This document shows positions 15,901 to 64,000 of a stretch of DNA of 64,000 nucleotides, piece after piece (positions within the stretch are counted from its first letter, which is position 1; each line of letters begins with the position of its first letter). The notes beneath the pieces were generated by a model that did not search any database, was not told where the DNA came from, and saw nothing but the letters and a program-made list of their open reading frames with translations. The position numbers and the translations under genes are program-made. Location of the stretch: positions 1 to 64,000 of the IMG/VR virus record IMGVR_UViG_3300023174_003154, one strand, 5' to 3'. The stretch is from a virus.

Positions 15901-16914
15901 ATGACTAACCTTTTTAAGAAAGCCGCAACCTTTACTGACATTCACTTCGGTTTAAAGAGCAACAGCTTACAACACAATCAAGACTGTTCCAATTTTGTAG
16001 ATTGGTTCATTGCTGAGGCAAAGAAAGAAAACTGCGAGACTTGTTTCTTCTTGGGCGATTATAACCATCATCGTGCAAGCATTAACATTCATACATTGCA
16101 GTTTGGTTTGCAAGCATTAGAAAAACTCAATAAGGCATTTGACCAAGTATATTTTATACCAGGTAATCATGACCTTTATTACAGAGACAAGCGAGACATT
16201 CATAGTGTAGAGTGGGCTAGACATTTACCTAACGTCACTATTGTCAATGATTGGTTTGTTAGAGATGATGTTGTTATTGCACCCTGGCTTGTACAAGATG
16301 ATTATAAAAAGATTCAAAAACTAAGTGGCAAATATATGTTTGGTCATTTTGAACTACCAAACTTCTACATGAATGCTATGGTAGAGATGCCCGATCACGG
16401 TGAGATTAGTGCTGAACACATGACAGGTTTTGATACTGTATTCAGTGGTCACTTTCACAAACGACAAGCAAAGAAAAACGTTTGGTATACAGGCAATGCT
16501 TTCCCACATAACTACGCAGATGCAGGTGATGATGCACGTGGTATGATGATATTAGAATGGGGTAAAGACCCAGAGTTTCGTAGTTGGCCAAATCAACCCA
16601 TGTATAGAGTTTATAAACTCAGTGATATATTAGAAAATCCTAAAGGATTGCTATTACCTGACAGTCATGTTAGAGTACATCTTGACATTGATATCAGTTA
16701 TGAAGAAGCAAACTTCATCAGGGAGACACTTATTCCAGAACATAAACTACGTGAAATGGCATTGATACCTATGAAGGTTGAACAAGTAGAACAACAGGCT
16801 AACGGTGGCTTGAAGTTTGAAAGTGTAGACCAAATCGTTATTGACCAGATTAACAGTATTGAATCAAACACATTTGACAAACGAATTTTGTTAGAGATTT
16901 ACAACAACCTATGA
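15901..16914 (+). CDS. Recombination nuclease subunit, gp47 (Mre11/SbcD-like)
   Basis: Metallophosphoesterase motifs TDIHFG, LGD, PGNHD, GHF and SGHFH. Confidence 0.92.
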   Translation: MTNLFKKAATFTDIHFGLKSNSLQHNQDCSNFVDWFIAEAKKENCETCFFLGDYNHHRASINIHTLQFGLQALEKLNKAFDQVYFIPGNHDLYYRDKRDIHSVEWARHLPNVTIVNDWFVRDDVVIAPWLVQDDYKKIQKLSGKYMFGHFELPNFYMNAMVEMPDHGEISAEHMTGFDTVFSGHFHKRQAKKNVWYTGNAFPHNYADAGDDARGMMILEWGKDPEFRSWPNQPMYRVYKLSDILENPKGLLLPDSHVRVHLDIDISYEEANFIRETLIPEHKLREMALIPMKVEQVEQQANGGLKFESVDQIVIDQINSIESNTFDKRILLEIYNNL

Positions 16915-17132
16915 AGTCACCCAAAGAAGTTAAAGAATTAGAATCATTGATTAAAGTAAACAAACATCTGGGTATTGCTTTATCTGAGTTAACTCATACT
17001 CATTCCTATATAGGTAGCTTACGTGAACAAAAGAGTTTGATTAAAGTTAAACTAAAATTAGAAGGTATAATAGAACGGACATTGAAGGAAGAGAAATCAT
17101 CCAAAGACAGTTTTTTTAGAAAATTAAAATGA
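16911..17132 (+). CDS. Small hypothetical protein between gp47 and gp46
   Basis: 73-aa ORF with ATGA overlaps at both ends, suggesting translational coupling. Confidence 0.6.
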   Translation: MKSPKEVKELESLIKVNKHLGIALSELTHTHSYIGSLREQKSLIKVKLKLEGIIERTLKEEKSSKDSFFRKLK

Positions 17133-19201
17133 TATTATTAAAGAACATTACACTACGAAACTTTCTATCGATCGGACAAGTCACGCAAGCAGTTGACTTT
17201 AACCGACAAGACTTAACACTTATTCTAGGTGAGAACTTAGACTTAGGTGGTGACGGTGCTCGTAATGGTACAGGTAAGACTAGTCTTATTCAAGGTCTAA
17301 GCTATGCATTGTTTGGTGTGCCCATTAACTCAATTAGAAAAGATAATTTAGTTAATCGTACAAATGGAAAGGGCATGTTAGTCACACTTGAGTTTAGTGT
17401 AAATGGTATTGACTACAAGATTGAGCGTGGTCGTAAGCCAAACCTATTGAGATTTTATGTAAACAGTGATTTACAAAAAGGTACAGACGATGCACAGGGT
17501 GAGAACAAAGAAACACAGATAGCAATTGAAAAAGTTCTGTGTATGTCTAGTAGCATGTTCCGCCATATCGTAGCATTGAATACATATAGCGAACCGTTCT
17601 TAGCACTTAAAGCAAACGAACAACGTGAAATCATTGAACAGTTATTGGGTATCACATTACTATCTGAGAAAGCAGAGACAATTAAGGTACTGTTAAAAGA
17701 TACCAAAGATAGTATTCAAGGTGAAGAATTCAAAGTCAAAGCTATTGAAGAAGCCAATAAGCGAGTAAAAGAACAGATTGAAAGTTTGAAACGCAGACAA
17801 GGTCTTTGGCAAAAGAAACACGAAAGTGACTTAGCATACCTAGTTGCACAGTATGATGAACTAGGCAAGATTGACATTGAAGTTGAATTATTAGCGCACA
17901 AAGAATTAGTCATTTGGAATGAGAAGAAAAAGCAACAAGATGCATACAATTCATTATTGGCTAGACAAACTGCTTGGAAACAAAAGCAAGAAAAAGACAT
18001 ATACGATTTAGAGAAAAACGGTATCAAGATGAGCCAAATTGATATCGTACAAGAAATATTAGCACATCGTGCTTTGGCTGAATATAACAACAAGTTAAAA
18101 GAAATTGCAGACAGAGACAAAGAAGTTGCAAGAATCGATAAGGACATTGAAAAAGAAAACAAGTTAATTGAGAAATTAAATGTTGAAATTTTAAAACTGT
18201 TAGCACATCAATGCTATGCTTGCGGGCAAGACTTCCATGATGAACAACATTCTAAGGTGTTGGCTGACAAAGAAAAGATGTTGGAAGATGCACAGTTTCA
18301 TGTCACTACGTTGTTGAATCAACTTAAAGAATTGAGTGACAAGGACATTGTATTGGGTGATAAACCCAAGACACATTACAAGACAGAAGCAGAAGCGATT
18401 CGTCATGGTAGCGATGCAGAAAATATTCGCACAAAAATACTTGAAAAAGAAAAAGAAGTTGATCCATATGCTGAACAACTAGCAGAATATAAACCAGTTG
18501 AGATTGGTGTTATGCCAGTCACTCATTATGATACAGAAACGCAAGCGATTGAACATCGTAGTAAAGTATCTGGGTTATTACAACAGATTGAAACAAAAGC
18601 AGTTGAGTCTGATCCATATGCTGAACAAGTAGTTGAGATGGAGTCAAATGCGTTACAAGCAATTGACTTTGAAGCAATCAACAAACTAACAAAGACTATG
18701 GAACATCAAAAGTTTCTATTAGATATTCTAACTAGCAAAGATAGCTTTGTTCGTAAGAAAATCATTGACCAAAATTTGAGTTATTTGAATAGTCGGTTGA
18801 CGCATTACTTAGACAAGATTGGTTTACCGCATCAGGTTATCTTTCAGAATGATTTGAACGTTGAGATTACAGAGTTGGGTCGTGAACTTGATTTTGATAA
18901 CTTAAGTCGTGGTGAACGTAACAGATTGATTCTTGGCTTAAGTTTTGCTTTCCGTGATGTTTGGGAGAACTTATATGCACCAATCAATACACTATTCATT
19001 GACGAATTGATTGACAGCGGGCTAGATACAATGGGTGTTGAAAACGCTATTGCTATTCTCAAAGATATGTCACGTAAGAGACAGAAATCAATTTGGCTTG
19101 TAAGTCATAGAGAAGAATTAGCAGGGCGTGTTCCTAGTGTGCTAAAAGTAGTTAAGGAGGGAGGCTTTACTTCTTATTCAAGCGCATCTGATATGGTGTA
19201 A
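17129..19201 (+). CDS. Recombination ATPase subunit, gp46 (Rad50/SbcC-like)
   Basis: Walker A GARNGTGKT, central CYAC zinc hook within coiled coil, signature LSRGE, Walker B LFIDE, H-loop VSH. Confidence 0.93.
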   Translation: MILLKNITLRNFLSIGQVTQAVDFNRQDLTLILGENLDLGGDGARNGTGKTSLIQGLSYALFGVPINSIRKDNLVNRTNGKGMLVTLEFSVNGIDYKIERGRKPNLLRFYVNSDLQKGTDDAQGENKETQIAIEKVLCMSSSMFRHIVALNTYSEPFLALKANEQREIIEQLLGITLLSEKAETIKVLLKDTKDSIQGEEFKVKAIEEANKRVKEQIESLKRRQGLWQKKHESDLAYLVAQYDELGKIDIEVELLAHKELVIWNEKKKQQDAYNSLLARQTAWKQKQEKDIYDLEKNGIKMSQIDIVQEILAHRALAEYNNKLKEIADRDKEVARIDKDIEKENKLIEKLNVEILKLLAHQCYACGQDFHDEQHSKVLADKEKMLEDAQFHVTTLLNQLKELSDKDIVLGDKPKTHYKTEAEAIRHGSDAENIRTKILEKEKEVDPYAEQLAEYKPVEIGVMPVTHYDTETQAIEHRSKVSGLLQQIETKAVESDPYAEQVVEMESNALQAIDFEAINKLTKTMEHQKFLLDILTSKDSFVRKKIIDQNLSYLNSRLTHYLDKIGLPHQVIFQNDLNVEITELGRELDFDNLSRGERNRLILGLSFAFRDVWENLYAPINTLFIDELIDSGLDTMGVENAIAILKDMSRKRQKSIWLVSHREELAGRVPSVLKVVKEGGFTSYSSASDMV

Positions 19202-19205
19202 TTCG

Positions 19206-19249
19206 TATAAAACTTACATTAAAAGATAAATAAATATGTAAGTTTTATA
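19206..19249 (+). promoter_or_regulatory. Perfect 14-bp hairpin with a late promoter (GATAAATA, 19225-19232) in its loop, adjacent to the endonuclease SD
   Basis: tataaaacttacat (19206-19219) / atgtaagttttata (19236-19249); AAGGA follows immediately. Confidence 0.75.
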
Positions 19250-19260
19250 AAGGATTTAAC

Positions 19261-19896
19261 ATGTGGTATGTATACATTTTGTATGACCCTAGAAATAATA
19301 CACCATTTTATATAGGTAAAGGTGTCAAAAGAAGAATGACAGCAACTATCAATATAAATCAAACGGGTAATGGATTAAAACGCAAGTTTCTTAAAGAAAT
19401 TAAAGATATTGGTTTAAAACCAATAGTTACTGTAGTAGCAGAGTATGACTCAGAAAAAGATGCGTTAGAAAAAGAAAAAATACTAATTTCAGAATTTGGT
19501 AGAATTATTAAAGGAGACGGGTGTTTGACAAATTATTCTGAAGGTGGGGACTTAAGTAATGCAGGTTGGATCCCATCGGATGATACTAGAAAATTATGGT
19601 CTAAGCAACGCAAGGGTATTAAACAGAGTGAGAATCATGTTTCCGCTAGGGTCGCAAAAACCAAAGGCCTAACTCGGTCGGATACTCAAAGAAAAAATTA
19701 TATTCTTGCTAGTATTAGGCGTACTAATCCAGAATTAAAAGCAAACATTATACACGAATTAGAAAGTAATTTGATACAGCACGGTACATTAACTACGATA
19801 GCTAAAAAATTCAATTGTAGCATTGACTTGATAAGTAGAATACACAAAGATATTAATTTATACAAAGAGGCATTAAATGAGTGGATCAAAAAGTAA
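19261..19896 (+). CDS. Free-standing homing endonuclease, GIY-YIG-like with NUMOD3-like DNA-binding repeats
   Basis: WYVYILYDP...FYIGKG..R motif pair, ALEKEKILI helix, LTN motif, NUMOD3-like SDDTRKLWSKQRKG / QSENHVSARVAKTKG, C-terminal HTH-like TTIAKKFNCSIDLISRI. Confidence 0.75.
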   Translation: MWYVYILYDPRNNTPFYIGKGVKRRMTATININQTGNGLKRKFLKEIKDIGLKPIVTVVAEYDSEKDALEKEKILISEFGRIIKGDGCLTNYSEGGDLSNAGWIPSDDTRKLWSKQRKGIKQSENHVSARVAKTKGLTRSDTQRKNYILASIRRTNPELKANIIHELESNLIQHGTLTTIAKKFNCSIDLISRIHKDINLYKEALNEWIKK

Positions 19897-20452
19897 GAAT
19901 AAAGGTAACGCATTTGAGCGTGAAGTTGCTAATTTTTTATCTAAAACATACAATGCCTCTTTTGTTCGGGCAGCACATAGCGGTGCATTTATAGGTGGGA
20001 CAAACAATCACCGAAAAGAATATCTAAGTGAGAATCAAGTTAAATCATTCAAAGGTGATATCATACCACCTGATGATTGGAAACATTTCAATGCCGAAGC
20101 GAAAAGTTACGCTGACTTTCCGTTTCATCTGGTACTAACAGGTGAATGCAAACAACTTGATTCGTGGTTAGCACAATTACTTGATGTAGAAGATACTGAC
20201 GATTTAAATATTCTTTTTATGAAGTTTAATCGTAAAGGTCAATATGTCGCTGTACAAGGTAAACTAACATGGAAAGCAGATAATTGTCTTTTATATAGTA
20301 GTCCTACACACGGCGACTGGGTCATCATGGAACATTCTAGCTTTTTTCAAAACAATGCAGAATTAGTAAAAACATATTCAAGCACAACAATCGACACCAC
20401 GTCAACTCTTAATACAAATATAAACGAATTTCATAAACAATTAGTCGGCTGA
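19877..20452 (+). CDS. Hjc-like PD-(D/E)xK nuclease (putative Holliday junction resolvase)
   Basis: SKNKGNAFEREVA...SGA...GDI...EAK is the Hjc-type catalytic arrangement; overlaps the upstream ORF by 20 nt. Confidence 0.75.
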   Translation: MSGSKSKNKGNAFEREVANFLSKTYNASFVRAAHSGAFIGGTNNHRKEYLSENQVKSFKGDIIPPDDWKHFNAEAKSYADFPFHLVLTGECKQLDSWLAQLLDVEDTDDLNILFMKFNRKGQYVAVQGKLTWKADNCLLYSSPTHGDWVIMEHSSFFQNNAELVKTYSSTTIDTTSTLNTNINEFHKQLVG

Positions 20453-20800
20453 GTTGTCAGTCCTCCTTGAGATTGTACAGATTGTGCTGTGCCGTCAGAT
20501 TCTGGAGTATGCATGTTAGCAATAACATGGAACACCGAGAAGGCTCTCGTCAAAGCGAACCTTCAATGAGTCTATAGCTACTCCATTTTGATGCTATAGA
20601 ACATGCGTTGCAGAATGAAACACTAGAGTGCGTAATTCAACTACAGACCAATAAACCCTACAGGGCAACCGGTGGCGAACAATAACATAAAAACGTTGAT
20701 TGTTCGGGTAAAGATGGCAAGGATGACGGTCATGGCATGTCACCATTGGTAGTGCTTAAATAGCACTACCATGGCTTCTAATCGGCATGATATATCCGAT
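20447..20800 (+). ncRNA. Candidate large structured non-coding RNA, family not recognised
   Basis: Gap with no ORF of 60 aa or more, GC-richer than flanking intergenics, with multiple nested helices, a GCAA tetraloop, G-U pairs favouring the plus strand and a 7-bp pseudoknot (see findings). Confidence 0.65.
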
Positions 20801-20928
20801 GAGTAATTAGATAAAAACAATAATTAAGAATAGATAAGAGTACAACCAAGAACGAGTGATAACGAGTTCTTAGAAGAACGAAGTTCTTCTCCATAAGAAA
20901 CAACAACTTGATAAATGAACCTTTCCGT

Positions 20929-21117
20929 TTAAAAGAATGGCAATTTCGTATTCTTTGTAGTTTCTAAGTTACTTTCAATAATAGCAGTTATGGCATTTCT
21001 TTCGTCATTGCTCATATTGAGTATATCCTCATAGGATGCTCCTCCCCTCATATACCATGACATTTTAAGTGCTCCTTTTCTTATATCAGAGCACTCCTGT
21101 TCCATACCATCTATCAT
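20929..21117 (-). CDS. gp51-like baseplate hub/tail assembly chaperone; probably C-terminal part of a -1 frameshift product
   Basis: WYMRGGASYEDILNMSNDERNAI resembles gp51 and P2 E' short chaperone domains; the frame stays open upstream to the slippery site at 21159-21165. Confidence 0.65.
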   Translation of the reverse strand: MIDGMEQECSDIRKGALKMSWYMRGGASYEDILNMSNDERNAITAIIESNLETTKNTKLPFF

Positions 21118-21119
21118 TC

Positions 21120-21165
21120 GCTTAATCCCCTCGGAACCAAGGAGAAGAAGCCTTAGTCGAAAAAA
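21120..21165 (-). other. Putative programmed -1 ribosomal frameshift signal (U UUU UUC, 7-nt spacer, hairpin)
   Basis: Minus strand: GAT TTT TTC GAC TAA G GCTTCTTCTCCTTG-GTTC-CGAGGGGATTAAGC; the -1 frame is that of the 62-aa ORF. Confidence 0.65.
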
Positions 21166-21980
21166 TCAGATATATTGATGTTTAGTGATTGTTGATGTGT
21201 GTGACTGCAATGACTACATGTAATATCTAAAGGTTTTAGTTCCGTTGTTTTACGCAATTCAATATTCTTTTCTTTGATAAAGTTATGAGTATTTTTATCA
21301 CATTGTTGTAGGAATTCATTTATAAATTCTTTATCAAAAACTGTTGCATCTGGGGTTTTGATATACTCAATGGTTTCTATCAACAATTCAGTAGTGAGGT
21401 CATTAATGCTTGCTATTAATTGACTTGTTTTTGTATTCTTTAAATCAACATCTTCAATTCTGTCTATATCCAATAGAGTACGTTGAATCTCAAATTGCTT
21501 TTCATTTGCTTTACTAACTTCTTTATACGTCAGAGGTCTAAATTTAATTTTTAACTCACCTATTGTCACTGGAGTGTTATAGTCACCAGGTGTAAAAGTT
21601 CCCAACAATCCTGACAGGTTAACATCAAACTTACTTTCTTCCTTACATTCTGGACAAGTAGAATCAATCTCCATTAATTGACCATTAGTAGCAATTTTAA
21701 TAGCAACTAATATTGGATCTAAATCAATGTTCAGTAATTCCCAGGGTCTTTTGATTGATGGAACACAACTTTTGATGATTTCTGTTACTGCTACCCCATT
21801 GAAAAGTGCATCAGGAGTTCTGCTTGTTATCTCATCAATAGCAGACATTGGGTATATTGGTAATTCTCCGCTCTCGGGGAATTCAATAGCACCTTCACTA
21901 TATCCTACACCCCCGCTTGGTAGTTTTAAATACAATGCTGGGCGGCGAAAGAATTGTCGTAATGGATTATCTTGAGTCAT
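21153..21980 (-). CDS. Baseplate hub subunit/assembly chaperone, gp26-like
   Basis: YLKLPSGG, IYPMSAIDEI, CPEC and CSHC zinc-knuckle pairs, IKFRP and a C-terminal DFF are typical of T4 gp26-family proteins. Confidence 0.75.
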   Translation of the reverse strand: MTQDNPLRQFFRRPALYLKLPSGGVGYSEGAIEFPESGELPIYPMSAIDEITSRTPDALFNGVAVTEIIKSCVPSIKRPWELLNIDLDPILVAIKIATNGQLMEIDSTCPECKEESKFDVNLSGLLGTFTPGDYNTPVTIGELKIKFRPLTYKEVSKANEKQFEIQRTLLDIDRIEDVDLKNTKTSQLIASINDLTTELLIETIEYIKTPDATVFDKEFINEFLQQCDKNTHNFIKEKNIELRKTTELKPLDITCSHCSHTHQQSLNINISDFFD

Positions 21981-22013
21981 TTGGGTTCCTAAAAAAATGG
22001 TAAGATTATGAAT

Positions 22014-22045
22014 ACTAAATACAATTAGTACCGAAAGTATTTATA
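22014..22045. promoter_or_regulatory. Face-to-face late promoters: ACTAAATA (+, 22014-22021) and TATAAATA (-, 22038-22045)
   Basis: One late motif per strand in the 75-bp gap between the divergent gp26-like and tape-measure-like genes. Confidence 0.6.
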
Positions 22046-22055
22046 ACTCAAAAAT

Positions 22056-24815
22056 ATGGCTACAAATAATCCAATGACACAAGAGCAAATGGAACAGTTT
22101 GCTCAATCGCTAGCAAGATTAGCGTCCCAGGTTGACACTACCCGTCAAGGATTCGGTCCCTTTGCCGATGCACAGCGTGAGGCAGGTGATGAGTTAAAGA
22201 ACGGAATGAAGCAGGCTGCACAGCAGTTAGGTAATTCAGTTGTTAGTTTAACTAAAGCAATGGATCCACTTAGTGGGCAACAGGGTCTAGGAAAGTTTTC
22301 AGGAGCAGTTTCAGGCGCTGCCGACGCTGCAGGTACAGCGGCTCAAACAATGCTTGCGTCATTTGGGCCTTTGGGATTAGTAGTTGGTACAGTCATAAAA
22401 TTATTTGGCCAGTTAGCAGGAGCTAGCTTAAAGCAAAATGATGTAATGATGAAAGCATACAGGGATCTGGCTGAAACAGGTTCTGTTAGTGGTAGTTTAG
22501 AAAAACTTAATACTGATTTACATAGAGTAGGATTAACATCTGGGGAAGCTGAAAAGTTTGGTCAGATGATTGGAAAAGTAACACCAGACCTTGCGGCTTT
22601 TGGTGGTAGTGTTACTGCTGGTAAAGATAAGTTTATCAAAGTATTTGAGGGAATGATTGGTGTCGGTAGCAAAACCGAAATGCAATTAAATCGTTTAGGG
22701 TATAGTACTGACACGATGCGTGAAGCAACTGCCGATTATATTGCAAGACAGTCAAGGTTAGGATTAACACAAGGTAAAACTACTGAACAGTTACGCGGTG
22801 AATCTGTAAACTACATGAAAACTCTGCGTGAGTTACAAGAAGTTACAGGTATGAGTCGTGACGAAGCACAAAAGATACTAGACCAACAGCAGAAAGACGC
22901 ACGTTGGGCAATGACATTACGTGAGATTGAAGCTACTCAAGGACACGAAGCTGCCGAAAGAGCAAGAATGGGTATGGCTGCGTTCTCTCAAACTTTCGGT
23001 TCAGAAGCTGCCGCTGATTTGATGGAACAAGTTGCTAATAAGGGTGCAATTGTTGGTGAAGCTAGCGCACGTAGCGAAAGAGCAACATTAGGTCAGGGGT
23101 ATAAACAACTGCAAGCTGTTATTGATGGTCAAATTACATCAGGTCAAATGGTTGTTGGTGTAAGTCAAGCAGTATCGAGAAATATGGATGCGCTTGGCCC
23201 AGCTTATAAAATTTCAGGTGATGGCCTGAAAGATATGACAGGTTCTATGGGATTGGTTACCGGAGCATATGCTAATGCTAACAAGAAGTACGAAGATGTA
23301 AACAAAACATTAGGAGACAAGACAAAAATAGCCGGTGATAGACTGCAAGAAAACGTTGAAATTGAACAAAAACAAAGAGTTATGCGTATAGCGGCTGATA
23401 AAGCTATATGGGAAATAGGTAACGTAACTGTTGGCATGTTCCAAAAGTTAAATGATATCATGTTTAAGTTTGCTAAAACTCTAGCAAAATTAGTTGATTG
23501 GGTAATGGATAAAGTCTTTAATAAGAAAACTAATTATGCTGACATGTTCAAAGACCAAGATGATTTTAAACAGGATCAAACAGCCGCACTAAAAGATAAG
23601 GCTGCGACCGAGGAAGAAATTGCTAGGGTTAAAAAACAGTATGCAGAACTTGAAGGTGATGCTACAGGTAAAATATTTGAATCTAAATTGGCAGCACTTA
23701 AGAAAACTGTAGCTGAAACTAATAATTACCAAGACGTTGAAGGTAATGTACAAGACTCTGCAATGATGGAGAAAAATTTAATTGCTAGACAAGAAGTTGC
23801 ACGATTAGAAGAATTAAAGAAACAAGCAGTCAAACAAGATGGCACAATTGACTTACAAAAATTAAATGCTTTAAAACAACAAAAATTACAAGCATTACAA
23901 GAACAGATTGCAAAAGAAGATTTAAGACTACAAGAAGCTGAGAAAAAATTAAAGAATTTTCAAGCTGAAGGTGGTGCTGGTAATGCTACATTAGAGGAAG
24001 CAAGACAACGAACTTCAAGTGCGTCAAAAGGAACAGCCTTTACTACTGATGAAAAAGGTAATCAAGTATCACAACAGAAATTTGAACAACGTTCAGGGGC
24101 ACAAGCTAACTTAGCCGCCCGAGCAGCCTCAGTGGATTCTTCTGAAATTTTAAACAAACTTAATTTTAAAAATAAAGGAGAAAATACAGGAGGCGGAGAA
24201 GCAGATCCTAAGTTACTTGCATTAGCTGAAATGGTACAAAAAGAATTTCCAGGTGCAACATTTACTGCATTGAACGATGCATTCCATAAAAATAATAGAC
24301 CAAATAGTAAGCACACGGTAGGAAGAGCATTAGATTTCGTTCCCGGCAAACCACCGAAGAGTGTTGATGAAGCGGCACTAATGAAAGAAAAGTTAAAAGA
24401 TTTAGGTGCTAATGTAGTTAGAGATGAGTTCTTTGCTGACAAAGGTGATAGTACTACTGGTGGACATTTTCACTTAGAAGTTGCTAGAGAAGGTGGGCTG
24501 TTTACTGGTCCAACATCAGGTTATCCAGTTGAATTGCATGGTAAAAATGAAAGTGTTTGGCCTGAACCAAAATTACAAGGTCTACTAAAAGAGGTAGAGA
24601 AGTCAAGTATTGAAAAATACAAACAAGAACTGATGGATCAAATGGGTTTATCAGATTATAACAAATCTAACCAAACTACAAGTTCATCTAGTAGTGATCC
24701 TAAGCAAATGGAAGATTTGTTCAATCGGATGATTACTAAATTTGATACATTAATAGCATTACAAGACAAGTCTAATAACATATCTGATGAATTATTAACC
24801 TATACACGGGCTTAA
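22056..24815 (+). CDS. Tape-measure-like protein (gp29 analogue) with C-terminal M15-type Zn peptidase domain
   Basis: Long Ala/Gln-rich helical region; SKHTVGRALD...HFH is an M15 (LAS) zinc motif; AREGGLFTGP..GYPVELHG..E.VWP resembles tape-measure C-terminal motifs. Confidence 0.65.
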   Translation: MATNNPMTQEQMEQFAQSLARLASQVDTTRQGFGPFADAQREAGDELKNGMKQAAQQLGNSVVSLTKAMDPLSGQQGLGKFSGAVSGAADAAGTAAQTMLASFGPLGLVVGTVIKLFGQLAGASLKQNDVMMKAYRDLAETGSVSGSLEKLNTDLHRVGLTSGEAEKFGQMIGKVTPDLAAFGGSVTAGKDKFIKVFEGMIGVGSKTEMQLNRLGYSTDTMREATADYIARQSRLGLTQGKTTEQLRGESVNYMKTLRELQEVTGMSRDEAQKILDQQQKDARWAMTLREIEATQGHEAAERARMGMAAFSQTFGSEAAADLMEQVANKGAIVGEASARSERATLGQGYKQLQAVIDGQITSGQMVVGVSQAVSRNMDALGPAYKISGDGLKDMTGSMGLVTGAYANANKKYEDVNKTLGDKTKIAGDRLQENVEIEQKQRVMRIAADKAIWEIGNVTVGMFQKLNDIMFKFAKTLAKLVDWVMDKVFNKKTNYADMFKDQDDFKQDQTAALKDKAATEEEIARVKKQYAELEGDATGKIFESKLAALKKTVAETNNYQDVEGNVQDSAMMEKNLIARQEVARLEELKKQAVKQDGTIDLQKLNALKQQKLQALQEQIAKEDLRLQEAEKKLKNFQAEGGAGNATLEEARQRTSSASKGTAFTTDEKGNQVSQQKFEQRSGAQANLAARAASVDSSEILNKLNFKNKGENTGGGEADPKLLALAEMVQKEFPGATFTALNDAFHKNNRPNSKHTVGRALDFVPGKPPKSVDEAALMKEKLKDLGANVVRDEFFADKGDSTTGGHFHLEVAREGGLFTGPTSGYPVELHGKNESVWPEPKLQGLLKEVEKSSIEKYKQELMDQMGLSDYNKSNQTTSSSSSDPKQMEDLFNRMITKFDTLIALQDKSNNISDELLTYTRA

Positions 24816-27186: not shown

Positions 27187-27189
27187 ATA
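27182..27189 (+). promoter_or_regulatory. Late promoter for the 75-aa gene
   Basis: GATAAATA overlapping the methyltransferase stop codon, 5 nt before ATG 27195. Confidence 0.6.
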
Positions 27190-27194
27190 TTAGT

Positions 27195-27422
27195 ATGAGA
27201 TTAATGGAAATGTTTGATTCACCCGTTCAAGGGTTTCAAGATGTTGAGAAAGACAGCAGTAGACCTAAGTGGAAACAATTCCGTAAAAGTAAATTAACTT
27301 TACGCCAAATTCGCAAATTACGTAAGATGAATGATGTACGTAACTATGAAAAAAATCAAAACTTAAAGAAAATTCGTAAACAATATCAACCGGCACCAGC
27401 GGAAGGTGCACCGGCAATGTAA
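27195..27422 (+). CDS. Small basic prohead-associated protein (gp68-like position)
   Basis: Basic 75-aa ORF between portal and protease genes; the assignment is positional. Confidence 0.45.
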   Translation: MRLMEMFDSPVQGFQDVEKDSSRPKWKQFRKSKLTLRQIRKLRKMNDVRNYEKNQNLKKIRKQYQPAPAEGAPAM

Positions 27423-27458
27423 CAATATTGACATAAAATTAAGAAAAACGCAAAAAAT

Positions 27459-27481
27459 GAGCACTTATTGTGCTCTTTTTT
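27459..27481 (+). terminator. Rho-independent terminator
   Basis: GAGCAC-ttatt-GTGCTC followed by T6. Confidence 0.75.
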
Positions 27482-27531
27482 ATGATACTTGCTAAGTATA
27501 TAACAAGCCATTAATCTATAGGAGACCAACA

Positions 27532-62499: not shown

Positions 62500-62518
62500 A
62501 AAAGAAAGAAAAATAAAA

Positions 62519-64000
62519 ATGGCAGACTACAATCAATTAAAAAATGCGGCAATATTAACTCCAACTACGACTACGGATTTAGGTAGTGATGCTAATCGCT
62601 ATTCAAATGTATACATGAGTGGTAACATTGTCATGAGTAATGGGGTTACTGTCACATCAACTAATGCTGTTGCACCTAGAATTATTAGTTTGGCATTGCC
62701 CGGTACAGAAACAGCAGTTGATATTGCAGGTGGTGAAACTATTTCTATTATTGGATCCGGATTTACTAATGTCGGCGGAACACCGTCAGTTTTAATTGGA
62801 AGTACATCTGCACTATCAGTAACTTATATCAGTTCTACTAATATATCTTTTGTGACCCCGGTGTTAAGTGCAGGAACATATACTGTATATATAATTAATT
62901 CAGACGGTGCTACAGCAACATATGCCCCGGGTATATCTTTTAGTGGTACTCCTACTTGGACTACTGCTGCCGGTAGTTTAGGTAATATGGGTAGTAACGT
63001 TTCTGTAAATTTATCAGTAGCCGCAACTGGTGATGCACCAATTACATATGCAATTAAAGCAGGTAGTAGTTTACCCGGTACCTTAAGTCTAAATACTAGT
63101 ACTGGCGCTATAACTGGAACTGCACCAACGTTTGCTAGTGCAACAACATATAATTTTACCATTACAGCAAAGGATGGTCAAAATCAACTAACTGATCGCT
63201 CTTTTAGTATTAACGGAGTCTTAATTCCTAGCACAGTTGATTATCTAGTAGTAGCAGGTGGAGGCGGAGGTGGCGGATATTATTATGCTGGTGGCGGTGG
63301 TGCGGGTGGATTACTATCTGCTACTGGATTTTCGATATCACCAAATACATATACTGTTACAATAGGCGCAGGCGGCCCAGGTGGTGCACCTAGTGCAAAT
63401 GGTGTTAATGGTGGTAATTCGGTATTCTCGTCAATAACATGTTATGGCGGCGGTGGCGGTGGCGGTGGCGGAAATCGTCCAGCACCAAACGGAGGATCAG
63501 GTGGTGGCGCCATGTCTGACCAAGTAAATGCAGGTGGTAAAGGTGTTTATCCAGGTTCAACATACATAGACGGACCTAGACAAGGCTACGATGGAGGAGC
63601 CTCATCTTCCGGAGCGTCAGTTGGTTCTTCAGGTGGTGGTGGAGGCGCAGGAGGTGTAGGTGGTGCTGGGGTATACATGTATACTGCGGGACCCGGTGGT
63701 ATTGGATCATTACAAACACTGACAACTTCTTTTATTGGTACAGCAACAACTAATTCGACCACTACATTAAATATAACAGCAGTAATTGCCGGTGAAATTC
63801 AAGTAGGTACACAAGTCACTGGTACAGGAATTCCTGCAGGAGCCTACGTTAAATCATTAGGTACAGGTACTGGTGGCACAGGCACCTATATATTAAATGC
63901 AGGAACTGGTTCTGGTAGTGGCATTGCAATTACTAGTTCAGGTAGATATTTTGCAGGTGGCGGAGGTGGACAAAGTTTGCAAGGTGGTGCCGGTGGTGCA
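62519..64000 (+). CDS. Gly-rich adhesin-like paralogue 4 (partial; runs off right edge)
   Basis: Not in the ORF track; ATG 62519 reads MADYNQLKNAAILTPTTTTDLGSDANRYSNVYMSGNIVMSNG and the frame still reads Gly-rich at 64000. Confidence 0.8.
   Translation, partial: MADYNQLKNAAILTPTTTTDLGSDANRYSNVYMSGNIVMSNGVTVTSTNAVAPRIISLALPGTETAVDIAGGETISIIGSGFTNVGGTPSVLIGSTSALSVTYISSTNISFVTPVLSAGTYTVYIINSDGATATYAPGISFSGTPTWTTAAGSLGNMGSNVSVNLSVAATGDAPITYAIKAGSSLPGTLSLNTSTGAITGTAPTFASATTYNFTITAKDGQNQLTDRSFSINGVLIPSTVDYLVVAGGGGGGGYYYAGGGGAGGLLSATGFSISPNTYTVTIGAGGPGGAPSANGVNGGNSVFSSITCYGGGGGGGGGNRPAPNGGSGGGAMSDQVNAGGKGVYPGSTYIDGPRQGYDGGASSSGASVGSSGGGGGAGGVGGAGVYMYTAGPGGIGSLQTLTTSFIGTATTNSTTTLNITAVIAGEIQVGTQVTGTGIPAGAYVKSLGTGTGGTGTYILNAGTGSGSGIAITSSGRYFAGGGGGQSLQGGAGGA

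What the first reader, a model, noticed from the sequence alone, without database searches (positions are those of the whole stretch)
20447..20800. Candidate large pseudoknotted ncRNA directly behind an Hjc-like nuclease gene
Seen in sequence: the only long ORF-free interval in a densely coding window folds by eye into a mutually compatible nested structure. Outer helix GCCGUCA 20491-97 / UGACGGU 20724-30. Hairpin CAUGUUA-GCAA-UAACAUG 20512-29 (GNRA loop). Long-range CACCG 20533-37 / CGGUG 20670-74, enclosing GAAGG/CCUUC 20539-64, UCUAUAGC/GCUAUAGA 20571-600 and GUUGC 20607-11 / GCAAC 20665-69. Hairpin CGAACAAUAAC/GUUgAUUGUUCG 20676-706. A 10-bp UGGUAGUGCU/AGCACUACCA stem 20747-71, and AUCGG/CCGAU 20781-800. 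The loop of the 20571-600 hairpin (UACUCCA 20579-85) is perfectly complementary to UGGAGUA 20503-09, giving a 7-bp pseudoknot. G-U pairs favour the plus strand. Established knowledge: it lacks the hallmarks of tmRNA, RNase P and group I introns. Inference: a large phage RNA I cannot assign to a family, co-transcribed with gp47-gp46-endonuclease-Hjc. Possible roles are an RNP partner or guide scaffold for the PD-(D/E)xK nuclease, an R-loop primer RNA at a replication origin (as with T4 origins or ColE1 RNAII), or a ribozyme.
Basis: partly seen in the sequence, partly recalled or inferred. Interest (0 to 1): 0.88.

Follow-up and report, generated by a model that had tools for sequence, protein, structure and literature searches.

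The report
Knotted twin-box RNA of lake phages
The gene-free stretch behind a small nuclease gene of this uncultured freshwater T4-like giant phage encodes a real, expressed, roughly 345-base RNA with a doubly knotted fold; hundreds of related phages keep it, it is a distant sibling of an orphan catalogued motif (Polynucleobacter-1), and its job is unknown.

Summary
Window 20445-20790 (+ strand) is a conserved structured non-coding RNA, not chance folding. About 200 related viral contigs carry it in the same slot: gp46, small nuclease, RNA, then a convergent baseplate gene. No ORF is conserved. A 97-pair model on 130 distinct copies is 92.5% paired, and 75 pairs show compensatory changes. G-U outnumbers A-C 271 to 9, which fixes the + strand. 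Metatranscriptome contigs from four studies cover it contiguously with the nuclease gene.

Covariation gives different knots instead: 20583-87/20713-17, 20647-49/20707-09 and 20581-82/20645-46.

No Rfam model matches. However, my model of the central domain hits directly 3' of Polynucleobacter-1 (RF01718) matches, and an RF01718-type RNA fills the same slot in another phage. I therefore call this a new variant of a known orphan family.

The oddest feature is two 7-base boxes (20730-38 and 20782-88) flanking a near-invariant hairpin. They change together so as to stay alike.

The function is unproven. A guide RNA for the nuclease is unlikely. This scan found the same family earlier on other DNA.

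The parts
20445..20790 (+). Whole conserved RNA, about 345 nt. The 5' limit lies 0-10 nt after the nuclease stop codon. The 3' limit is where conservation ends, after GCGGCAAU.
   Evidence: blastn and nhmmer conservation in about 200 loci; alignments A1 and A2; an RNA-library contig ends at 20797
20447..20462 (+). P1 hairpin. In this phage it overlaps the nuclease stop codon TGA at 20450-52.
   Evidence: Many pair types per position. In most relatives the stop codon lies just upstream.
20463..20507 (+). P2 (CUCC 20463-66 with GGAG 20504-07), which encloses the P2a hairpin (20471-73/20494-96 and 20475-80/20487-92).
   Evidence: C66-G04 becomes U-A in three distinct copies of the 130, at least two of them clearly separate lineages (L005, L147, L197). 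A72-U95 covaries.
20512..20529 (+). P3 hairpin with a GNRA loop
   Evidence: Compensatory changes. Loops read GCAA, GUAA, GUGA or GCGA.
20533..20674 (+). Central domain. P4 (20533-37/20670-74) encloses P5 (20539-64), P6 (20566-604), P7 (20607-12/20664-69) and the variable P8 (20615-37).
   Evidence: These helices are 96-100% paired with many compensatory changes. Model R1 was built from this domain.
20581..20587 (+). Loop of P6. 20581-82 pair with 20645-46 (T1). 20583-87 pair with 20713-17 (pseudoknot PK1).
   Evidence: All 7 pairs show compensatory changes and are 99% paired.
20647..20649 (+). 5' strand of pseudoknot PK2, pairing with 20707-09
   Evidence: UA 86, CG 17, AU 16, GC 5 at 20647/20709. 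All 3 pairs are compensated.
20676..20706 (+). P9 hairpin
   Evidence: 10 pairs, all with compensatory changes, 88% paired
20707..20717 (+). 3' strands of PK2 (20707-09) and PK1 (20713-17)
20730..20738 (+). Box A of the twin boxes (UC-AU-GGCAU here)
   Evidence: Identity to box B exceeds every one of 1000 shuffles at 7 of 8 positions. Word pairs are listed.
20743..20774 (+). P10, a near-invariant hairpin (UGGURGUGC, loop, GCACUACCA) with a 3-bp extension
   Evidence: Present in all copies. The main change, A to G at 20751 in 15 copies, gives G-U on the + strand; three other stem pairs change in one or two copies each.
20782..20788 (+). Box B of the twin boxes (UCGGCAU here)
19877..20452 (+). 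Upstream gene: 191-aa PD-(D/E)xK nuclease (Pfam PDDEXK_15). Cultured-phage relatives are annotated as T5 D14-like protein or Holliday-junction resolvase.
19261..19896 (+). GIY-YIG endonuclease-like gene between gp46 and the nuclease gene. The Pfam match is weak: 20.4 bits, below the 22.6-bit cut-off.
20929..21980 (-). Convergent downstream genes: a 62-aa ORF and a T4_baseplate-family gene. These are the constant right-hand neighbours of the RNA.
   Evidence: A convergent baseplate gene lies downstream in 177 of 177 loci with enough DNA.

Best explanation
Shown:
- 20445-20790 (+) is a genuine gene for a structured non-coding RNA of about 345 nt.
- It belongs to a large family in uncultured freshwater T4-like jumbo phages.
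- It is a distant sibling of the orphan Polynucleobacter-1 motif (RF01718).
- It folds into a 5' arm (P1-P3), a compact central core (P4-P9) locked by two pseudoknots plus a two-pair tertiary contact, and a 3' module. In that module an almost invariant hairpin (P10) is flanked by two 7-nt 'twin boxes' that evolve so as to stay alike.

Inferred from weak evidence:
- It is made as the tail of the gp47-gp46-nuclease transcript.

Inferred only (my committed mechanism):
- It is then kept as a stable RNA and acts in trans as a scaffold.
- The knotted core gives a fixed shape.
- P10 with its two look-alike boxes offers two equivalent docking sites for one sequence-specific partner. That partner could be a protein dimer, or two copies of one nucleic-acid sequence.
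- The small nuclease genes next to it are there for two reasons. The PD-(D/E)xK gene belongs to the same recombination module. Free-standing GIY-YIG homing-type genes settle beside highly conserved sequence. Neither needs the RNA as a guide.
For: - Conservation without an ORF: 70-96% nucleotide identity in loci whose nuclease is only 56-90% identical in protein.
- Structure: 97 pairs, 92.5% paired, 75 pairs with compensatory change, covariation score 0.398 against 0.165 shuffled (0 of 500) and 0.06-0.08 when slid.
- Pseudoknots: every pair of PK1, PK2 and T1 is compensated.
- Strand: G-U to A-C is 271 to 9.
- Expression: RNA-library contigs from four studies cover 20114-20797. These include a 490-nt contig spanning 20308-20797 at depth 112. 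Depth falls to 0-10 beyond about 20800.
- Fixed slot: gp46 upstream in 115 of 116 loci and a convergent baseplate gene downstream in 177 of 177.
- Independence from the nuclease type: L143 and L253 have a SegE GIY-YIG gene instead, and a gene follows the PA5oct nuclease gene directly.
- Twin boxes: identity is above all 1000 shuffles at 7 of 8 positions. Word pairs include UCGGCAU/UCGGCAU, GCAAGUA/GCAAGUA, CGGAAAG/CGGAAAG, GUUGAA/GUUGAA and AAGCAG/AAGCAG, and GUGUCAAGU twice in the RF01718-type RNA of L253.
- Kinship to RF01718: central-domain model R1 hits immediately 3' of the RF01718 (L211, L212) or Polynucleobacter-profile (L253, L327) matches, E = 9e-5 to 0.018. L253 holds that RNA in the same slot.
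Against: - No partner has been identified.
- Contigs give no ends, no strand and no proof of processing, and DNA carry-over in RNA libraries is possible.
- Identity between the boxes could partly reflect shared ancestry of the sequences.
- No complement of the box word was found elsewhere in the 64-kb window, and no other column within the aligned RNA stood out as covarying with the box positions in the MI screen.
- A purely cis-acting role at the end of the operon is not excluded.
- The 5' domain shows no detectable likeness to RF01718.
Confidence: 0.4

Rival explanations
1. Cis-acting operon-end element. The fold sits at the 3' end of the recombination-gene transcript. It would protect that transcript from 3'-to-5' exonucleases, or stop or insulate transcription where it meets the convergent late baseplate operon. 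It would have no trans function.
For: It always lies at the junction of two convergent gene blocks. It starts within 0-10 nt of the upstream stop codon. RNA-library contigs bridge gene and RNA.
Against: - No terminator-like site was found (0 found).
- Two pseudoknots, tertiary pairs and many invariant junction bases are far more than a protective hairpin needs.
- In L143 and L253 a spacer of 105-140 nt separates the RNA from the upstream gene.
- A related RNA occurs in small bacterial genomes without a co-oriented ORF directly upstream in the one locus I inspected (L210).
Confidence: 0.2
2. Replication or recombination signal. The P10 palindrome with flanking direct repeats would work like the iterons and hairpin of an origin, read as DNA or as single-stranded + strand DNA. 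Alternatively the transcript primes DNA synthesis, as at T4 R-loop origins.
For: - Direct repeats kept identical within an element but differing between lineages are typical of iterons bound by one specific protein (established knowledge of rolling-circle and geminivirus origins).
- The element sits beside the gp46/gp47 and resolvase-like genes and next to baseplate-hub genes. From memory, T4 oriF lies near uvsY-25-26.
- G-T wobble would also be tolerated in a single-stranded DNA fold.
Against: - The boxes are only 7 nt and number only two.
- The rest of the element shows RNA-type features: GNRA loops, long-range helices and pseudoknots with G-U.
- No AT-rich unwinding region is conserved next to it.
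- The GC-skew change around 20.3-22 kb follows the change of coding strand.
Confidence: 0.12
3. Ribozyme. The compact knotted core with invariant junction bases is a catalytic RNA, either self-cleaving to free itself from the mRNA or with another activity.
For: Its size, its double pseudoknot and its invariant unpaired bases (ACCGAGA, CAAUGAG, AUGCGUUGC, CACUACAG, UUACAGG, GGAUGACGG) resemble known ribozyme cores in style.
Against: No match to any Rfam ribozyme, even at E up to 10. The helix order does not fit a group I intron (P3/P7/P8 order). No cleavage site or exon is evident, and no end data exist.
Confidence: 0.08
4. RNA cofactor or guide of the neighbouring nuclease. The RNA would bind the PD-(D/E)xK enzyme and aim or control it, with the twin boxes as guide segments.
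For: Adjacency to a small nuclease gene in every locus with enough upstream DNA. The boxes vary between lineages, as guide segments do.
Against: - The neighbouring nuclease is of an unrelated fold in L143 and L253 (SegE GIY-YIG).
- The PDDEXK_15 homologue of PA5oct is followed directly by another gene, and R1 found no copy in that genome.
- The conserved part of the nuclease ends at residue 165, and the extra tail is variable.
- L210 in a bacterial genome has no recognisable nuclease beside the related RNA.
Confidence: 0.07

Closest known systems
Polynucleobacter-1 RNA motif (Rfam RF01718; Weinberg et al. 2010, Genome Biol 11:R31, PMC2864571, Additional file 1)
   Same: - It is an orphan structured RNA of freshwater samples, described as lying downstream of a small gene with a cyanophage homologue.
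- My central-domain model R1 matches directly 3' of the RF01718 or Polynucleobacter-profile matches in two bacterial and two viral loci.
- In viral contig L253 the RF01718-type RNA sits in the same slot: small nuclease gene, RNA, convergent small ORF, T4_baseplate gene.
- It also has twin boxes around a hairpin (GUGUCAAGU twice).
   Different: - The 141-position Rfam model does not match this RNA or 14 diverse relatives, even at E up to 10.
- My 5'-domain model does not match RF01718 loci.
- The central domain is shorter in the RF01718-type RNAs: 25-29 nt against 57-59 inside P7, with P4 not formed.
- The hairpin between the boxes has a different sequence.
- The Rfam entry covers only the 5' third, and no function is known.
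Large 'ornate' RNAs of unknown function, partly phage-borne (GOLLD RF01998, ROOL RF03087, OLE, raiA)
   Same: Large size, many helices, pseudoknots, strong conservation, occurrence in phages and no known function. This resemblance rests on established knowledge, not on a test.
   Different: No sequence or structure match to any of these Rfam models. This RNA is smaller than GOLLD and ROOL and is not next to tRNA genes (no tRNA in the window). Homo-oligomer formation was not tested.
Group I introns, RNase P RNA and tmRNA
   Same: Size range and the presence of long-range pseudoknots and GNRA loops.
   Different: No Rfam or ARAGORN match. PK2's 5' strand lies inside an extra helix (P7), unlike P7/P3 of group I. 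There is no downstream exon on the + strand.
Iterons beside an origin hairpin (rolling-circle replicons, geminiviruses)
   Same: Short direct repeats next to a hairpin that stay identical within one element and differ between lineages.
   Different: This is a DNA-protein system. Here the surrounding element behaves as a folded RNA, and no Rep-like gene was seen beside it in the genes I scanned.

Membership tests
Polynucleobacter-1 (RF01718) | Match to the Rfam covariance model at or above 37 bits | tested here: not met
   No match at gathering score or at E up to 10 in the window. None in 14 diverse relatives at gathering score or in 6 at E up to 5. The model does find 3 bacterial loci at 67-82 bits.
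Polynucleobacter-1 (RF01718) | Homologous sequence and structure beyond the Rfam-defined part | tested here: met
   R1 (central domain, 152 positions) hits L327, L253, L212 and L211 at E = 8.8e-5, 5.9e-4, 4.7e-3 and 0.018. Each hit lies immediately 3' of the RF01718 or Polynucleobacter-profile match. L210 was not hit. Scores are low (15-24 bits).
Polynucleobacter-1 (RF01718) | Same genomic position (downstream of a small gene, in phage-like DNA) | tested here: met
   L253 has a SegE GIY-YIG gene, then the RNA, then a convergent 75-aa ORF and a T4_baseplate gene. This is the same order as window 19877-21980.
Polynucleobacter-1 (RF01718) | Homologous 5' domain | tested here: inconclusive
   R2 (5' domain) gives only E > 1 noise on RF01718 loci, but R2 carries only 7 base pairs. 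A shared GACGGA..UUCUGG stretch seen by eye is not a test.
GOLLD / ROOL / OLE / raiA / HEARO | Match to the family's Rfam model | tested here: not met
Group I intron | P3-P8 / P4-P6 core order, flanking exons, Rfam model match | tested here: not met
   No Rfam match. The helix order from covariation differs. There is no + strand ORF downstream.
tmRNA / tRNA-like | tRNA-like domain and tag reading frame | tested here: not met
   ARAGORN finds nothing in the window.
Guide RNA of an RNA-guided nuclease (omega-RNA type) | Obligate pairing of one RNA family with one nuclease family | tested here: not met
   The RNA occurs with PDDEXK_15 or with SegE GIY-YIG. The PA5oct nuclease gene is followed directly by another gene, and R1 found no copy in that genome.
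Intrinsic terminator / simple 3' stabiliser | G+C-rich hairpin followed by a U run at the 3' end | tested here: not met
   0 terminator-like sites in 19000-22200.

The most novel reading that the evidence does not exclude
The twin boxes are two identical recognition segments. Through them the RNA holds two copies of the same nucleic-acid sequence together, for example two homologous DNA or RNA sites during recombination-dependent replication. Alternatively they link RNA copies into a homo-oligomeric assembly. Either way it would be a new kind of phage RNA acting in DNA transactions rather than in gene regulation.
Probability: 0.12. Interest if true: 0.9.

Novelty: new variant of a known kind. 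Interest (0 to 1): 0.7.

Why it matters
Large RNAs with intricate, pseudoknotted folds and invariant junctions are rare, and nearly all of them turned out to be ribozymes, riboswitches or cores of RNA-protein machines.

- **Abundance.** This one is kept at one fixed place in hundreds of uncultured freshwater jumbo phages, and it appears in RNA libraries from lakes.
- **Catalogue gap.** It extends an orphan motif catalogued in 2010 into a full-length RNA more than twice the size of the Rfam entry. It also shows that the Rfam model misses a whole clade.
- **Twin boxes.** Two short words that change together so as to remain alike rather than complementary are not explained by ordinary RNA pairing. 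They give a concrete handle for experiments: mutate one box, both boxes, or swap them.
- **Annotation.** A covariance model of the full RNA would let phage and metagenome pipelines label this gap.

Tried and rejected
- Rfam at gathering score and at E up to 10 gave only noise (snoRNA, Sphinx).
- ARAGORN found nothing.
- blastn of the region against 50,697 cultured-phage records gave no match.
- The idea that the conserved CCUCCUUGA is the Pro-Pro-stop end of the nuclease ORF fails. That frame is closed 2-37 codons upstream in all 130 copies.
- An anti-Shine-Dalgarno role for CCUCC is unlikely, because it pairs internally with GGAG.
- Eight bacterial contigs match the P10 pattern exactly. They do not match the RNA profile. 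Five were aligned and look like a conserved protein-coding stretch of Gammaproteobacteria, so the match is chance.
- The pattern TCACTATCC..GGACG in viral contigs gave mostly chance hits. Only L253 and L327 are RF01718-type.
- Melnitz-3 is the nearest cultured phage by the SegE-like protein. The gap behind that gene is only 148 nt, too short for the RNA. The single weak R1 hit in its genome lies inside a CDS.
- I looked for a cis or trans complement of the box word. There is no second copy or complement of TCGGCATG in the window, and no other column within the aligned RNA stood out as covarying with 20730/20782 in the MI screen. UGCCG at 20490-94 is complementary to CGGCA, but this does not hold in lineages with other box words.
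- A longest-common-word test of the boxes was uninformative because one box type dominates.
- One nhmmer run with --max returned an empty pipeline and was repeated without that option.
- RNA-library depth says nothing about parts upstream of 20103, where the relatives are too diverged to be laid.
Full report
**Setting**

The window is part of a 76-kb IMG/VR virus record, estimated about 21% complete. It comes from a T4-like phage. Pfam finds:
- a gp47-like phosphoesterase (15901-16914);
- a gp46-like SMC/AAA protein (17129-19201);
- a weak GIY-YIG match (19261-19896; 20.4 bits, below the cut-off);
- a PDDEXK_15 nuclease (19877-20452), all of these on the + strand;
- on the - strand, a 62-aa ORF and a T4_baseplate-family gene (20929-21980), then the portal further on.

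Cultured-phage relatives of the nuclease are annotated as T5 D14-like protein or Holliday-junction resolvase (PA5oct group, Campylobacter T4-like phages). The finding therefore sits between two convergent gene blocks.

**Is it more than chance?**

Folding energy alone does not decide. The z-score is -2.8 on the + strand and -5.0 on the - strand. Comparison with relatives does decide.
- The nuclease protein retrieved 80 related viral loci. The DNA just behind the gene is 70-96% identical in nearly all of them, although the protein is only 56-90% identical.
- No reading frame is conserved there.
- A pattern from the most conserved hairpin found more than 119 further viral contigs. Wherever enough upstream DNA was present, the element lay directly 3' of the nuclease gene, with one exception, L143.
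- Synteny is fixed. gp46 lies upstream on the same strand in 115 of 116 loci. A convergent T4_baseplate gene lies downstream in 177 of 177, at a median distance of 370 nt.

**Structure**

RNAalifold on 57 copies predicted 64 pairs, 40 of them with compensatory changes. I then aligned 130 distinct full-length copies.
- 20583-87 with 20713-17 (PK1; for example UA 79 / CG 49, AU 78 / GC 48, CG 98 / UA 29);
- 20647-49 with 20707-09 (PK2; UA 86, CG 17, AU 16, GC 5);
- 20581-82 with 20645-46 (T1).

The full model has 97 pairs in 21 helix segments.
- It is 92.5% paired.
- 75 pairs show compensatory change.
- The covariation score is 0.398, against 0.165 for shuffles (0 of 500) and 0.06-0.08 when partners are slid by 1-3 columns.

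- The loop's real partners are the ones that covary with it.
- GGAG 20504-07 instead pairs with CUCC 20463-66. C66-G04 changes to U-A in three distinct copies of the 130 (L005, L147, L197), at least two of them clearly separate lineages.
- A further contact, 20467-69 with 20736-38, is tentative (6 double changes at one pair).
- Position 20674 covaries with both 20533 and 20657. I cannot explain this. It may be a base triple or an alternative pairing.

**Strand and limits**

In the 61 pairs that are at least 95% paired, G-U occurs 271 times and A-C 9 times.

Conservation begins a few bases before P1 and ends after GCGGCAAU at about 20790. In most relatives the nuclease stop codon lies 0-10 nt before P1. 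In this phage it lies inside P1. The conserved CCUCCUUGA is never in the nuclease frame.

**Expression**

Six metatranscriptome runs hold about 30% of the sampled words of the region. I laid contigs from four of them, from four studies. They cover 20114-20797 at 85-99% likeness.
- One 490-nt contig spans 20308-20797 at depth 112.
- One 267-nt contig spans 20462-20728 at depth 35.
- One 637-nt contig bridges the nuclease gene and the RNA.
- Summed depth drops to 0-10 beyond about 20800.

Contigs cannot show strand, ends or processing, and DNA carry-over is possible. This is therefore weak support for transcription together with the nuclease gene and for a 3' end near 20797.

**What it is not**

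- No Rfam family matches, either at gathering score over the whole window or at E up to 10 over 20300-21000.
- There is no tRNA or tmRNA.
- There is no terminator-like site.
- The helix order does not fit a group I intron, and no exon follows on the + strand.

**Relation to the neighbouring nuclease**

- In L143 the order is gp46, a radical-SAM gene, a SPASM-domain gene, a SegE-type GIY-YIG gene, a 105-nt spacer, then the RNA. No PDDEXK gene is present.
- In PA5oct the homologous nuclease gene is followed at once by another gene, and the central-domain model R1 finds nothing in that genome.
- The conserved part of the nuclease ends at residue 165, and the tail beyond it varies.

The RNA is thus not tied to one nuclease family, which argues against a guide or cofactor role. 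Free-standing GIY-YIG genes of the Seg type are known to settle beside conserved sequence. That would explain their presence next to a highly conserved RNA gene. This is an inference.

**Kinship with a catalogued motif**

Notes from earlier runs of this scan on other genomes named Polynucleobacter-1 (RF01718) as a relative and mentioned 'twin boxes'. I tested both leads.

For the RF01718 lead:
- RF01718 does not match the window, 14 diverse relatives at gathering score or 6 relatives at E up to 5.
- It does match three small Burkholderiales genomes at 67-82 bits.
- A covariance model of my central domain (R1, from alignment A3) hits four loci at E = 8.8e-5 to 0.018 in a 34-kb search. Each hit lies immediately 3' of the RF01718 match or of the Polynucleobacter profile match.
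- It recovers the P5 and P6 hairpins and the GCGUU...AACCG helix P7. P4 is not formed there, and the insert inside P7 is shorter.
- One of these loci, viral contig L253, has the order SegE GIY-YIG gene, RNA, convergent 75-aa ORF, T4_baseplate gene. This is the same slot as in the window.
- A model of my 5' domain (R2) does not match RF01718 loci, but it carries only 7 pairs.
- The 2010 paper describes the motif as freshwater-derived, lying downstream of a small gene with a cyanophage homologue, with a 3' half that is 'not always detected', and absent from purified phages sequenced at the time. No other paper in the library mentions it.
- A 2023 survey predicted 10,006 viral structured RNAs from IMG/VR (PMC10690425). 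Its tables are not held as text, so I could not check whether this RNA is among them.

I conclude that this RNA is a sibling clade of a longer, still undescribed full-length Polynucleobacter-1-type RNA.

**The twin boxes**

Position 20730 and position 20782 covary as G/G 76, U/U 28 and C/C 7. They covary by identity, not by complementarity. In register, box A (20730-31 and 20734-38) and box B (20782-88) are identical more often than in any of 1000 shuffles at 7 of 8 positions.
- Lineages carry different words in both boxes at once: UCGGCAU, GCGGCAA, CGGCAG, GCAAGUA, AGUAAU, GAUAAU, CGGUAA, GUUGAA, CGGAAAG and AAGCAG.
- L253 has GUGUCAAGU twice around a different hairpin.
- The boxes flank P10. 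Unlike every other helix, P10 is almost invariant in sequence.
- The window holds no second copy or complement of the box word, and no other column within the aligned RNA stood out as covarying with the box positions in the MI screen.
- Relatedness of the sequences inflates such tests, but near-identical sequences differ in both boxes together (for example L072 against L062). The changes have therefore recurred.

Two equivalent sites for one specific partner is the simplest reading. An iteron-like DNA signal is the main alternative.

**Verdict**

It is a new variant of a known but unexplained kind. Its function is unknown.

I commit, at modest confidence, to a stable trans-acting scaffold RNA made from the tail of the recombination operon, whose P10 and twin-box module docks a sequence-specific partner. 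The same family was found earlier by this scan on other DNA.

Noticed in passing
window 19261-19896 and 19877-20452: A GIY-YIG-like ORF (weak Pfam match, below cut-off) overlaps the start of the PDDEXK nuclease gene by 20 nt. It looks like a free-standing homing-type gene inserted between gp46 and the nuclease gene.
   Followed up: partly
L143:5786-7290: In this relative a radical-SAM gene, a SPASM-domain gene and a SegE GIY-YIG gene replace the PDDEXK nuclease between gp46 and the RNA. The 105-nt spacer before the RNA holds two G+C-rich hairpins and the word AAACAGACACCAAGTCA twice.
   Followed up: partly
window 20533, 20657, 20674: Position 20674 covaries in Watson-Crick fashion with both 20533 (its P4 partner) and 20657, through three states (U/A, C/G, A/U). 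This may be a base triple or an alternative pairing.
   Followed up: no
L201-L206 (bacterial contigs): Exact matches to the P10 pattern in Pseudomonadales and Alteromonas MAGs. Five of these contigs were aligned and look like one conserved protein-coding stretch. They are unrelated to the RNA and match by chance.
   Followed up: yes
window 27187-27531 and 62500-62823: Two further gaps of about 330 nt without any ORF of 80 aa or more. I did not examine them.
   Followed up: no
L143 and L161 P2a loops (A2 columns 42-69): In some divergent lineages the loop of P2a contains a word like that lineage's twin boxes: GUUGAAAG in L143, AGUAAC in L161. A third box copy is possible. This was seen by eye only.
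   Followed up: no
L210:458-2263: In a small Burkholderiales genome the RF01718-type RNA is flanked by a divergent DUF6641 gene and followed by a co-oriented 224-aa ORF without a Pfam match. No nuclease gene was recognised beside it.
   Followed up: partly
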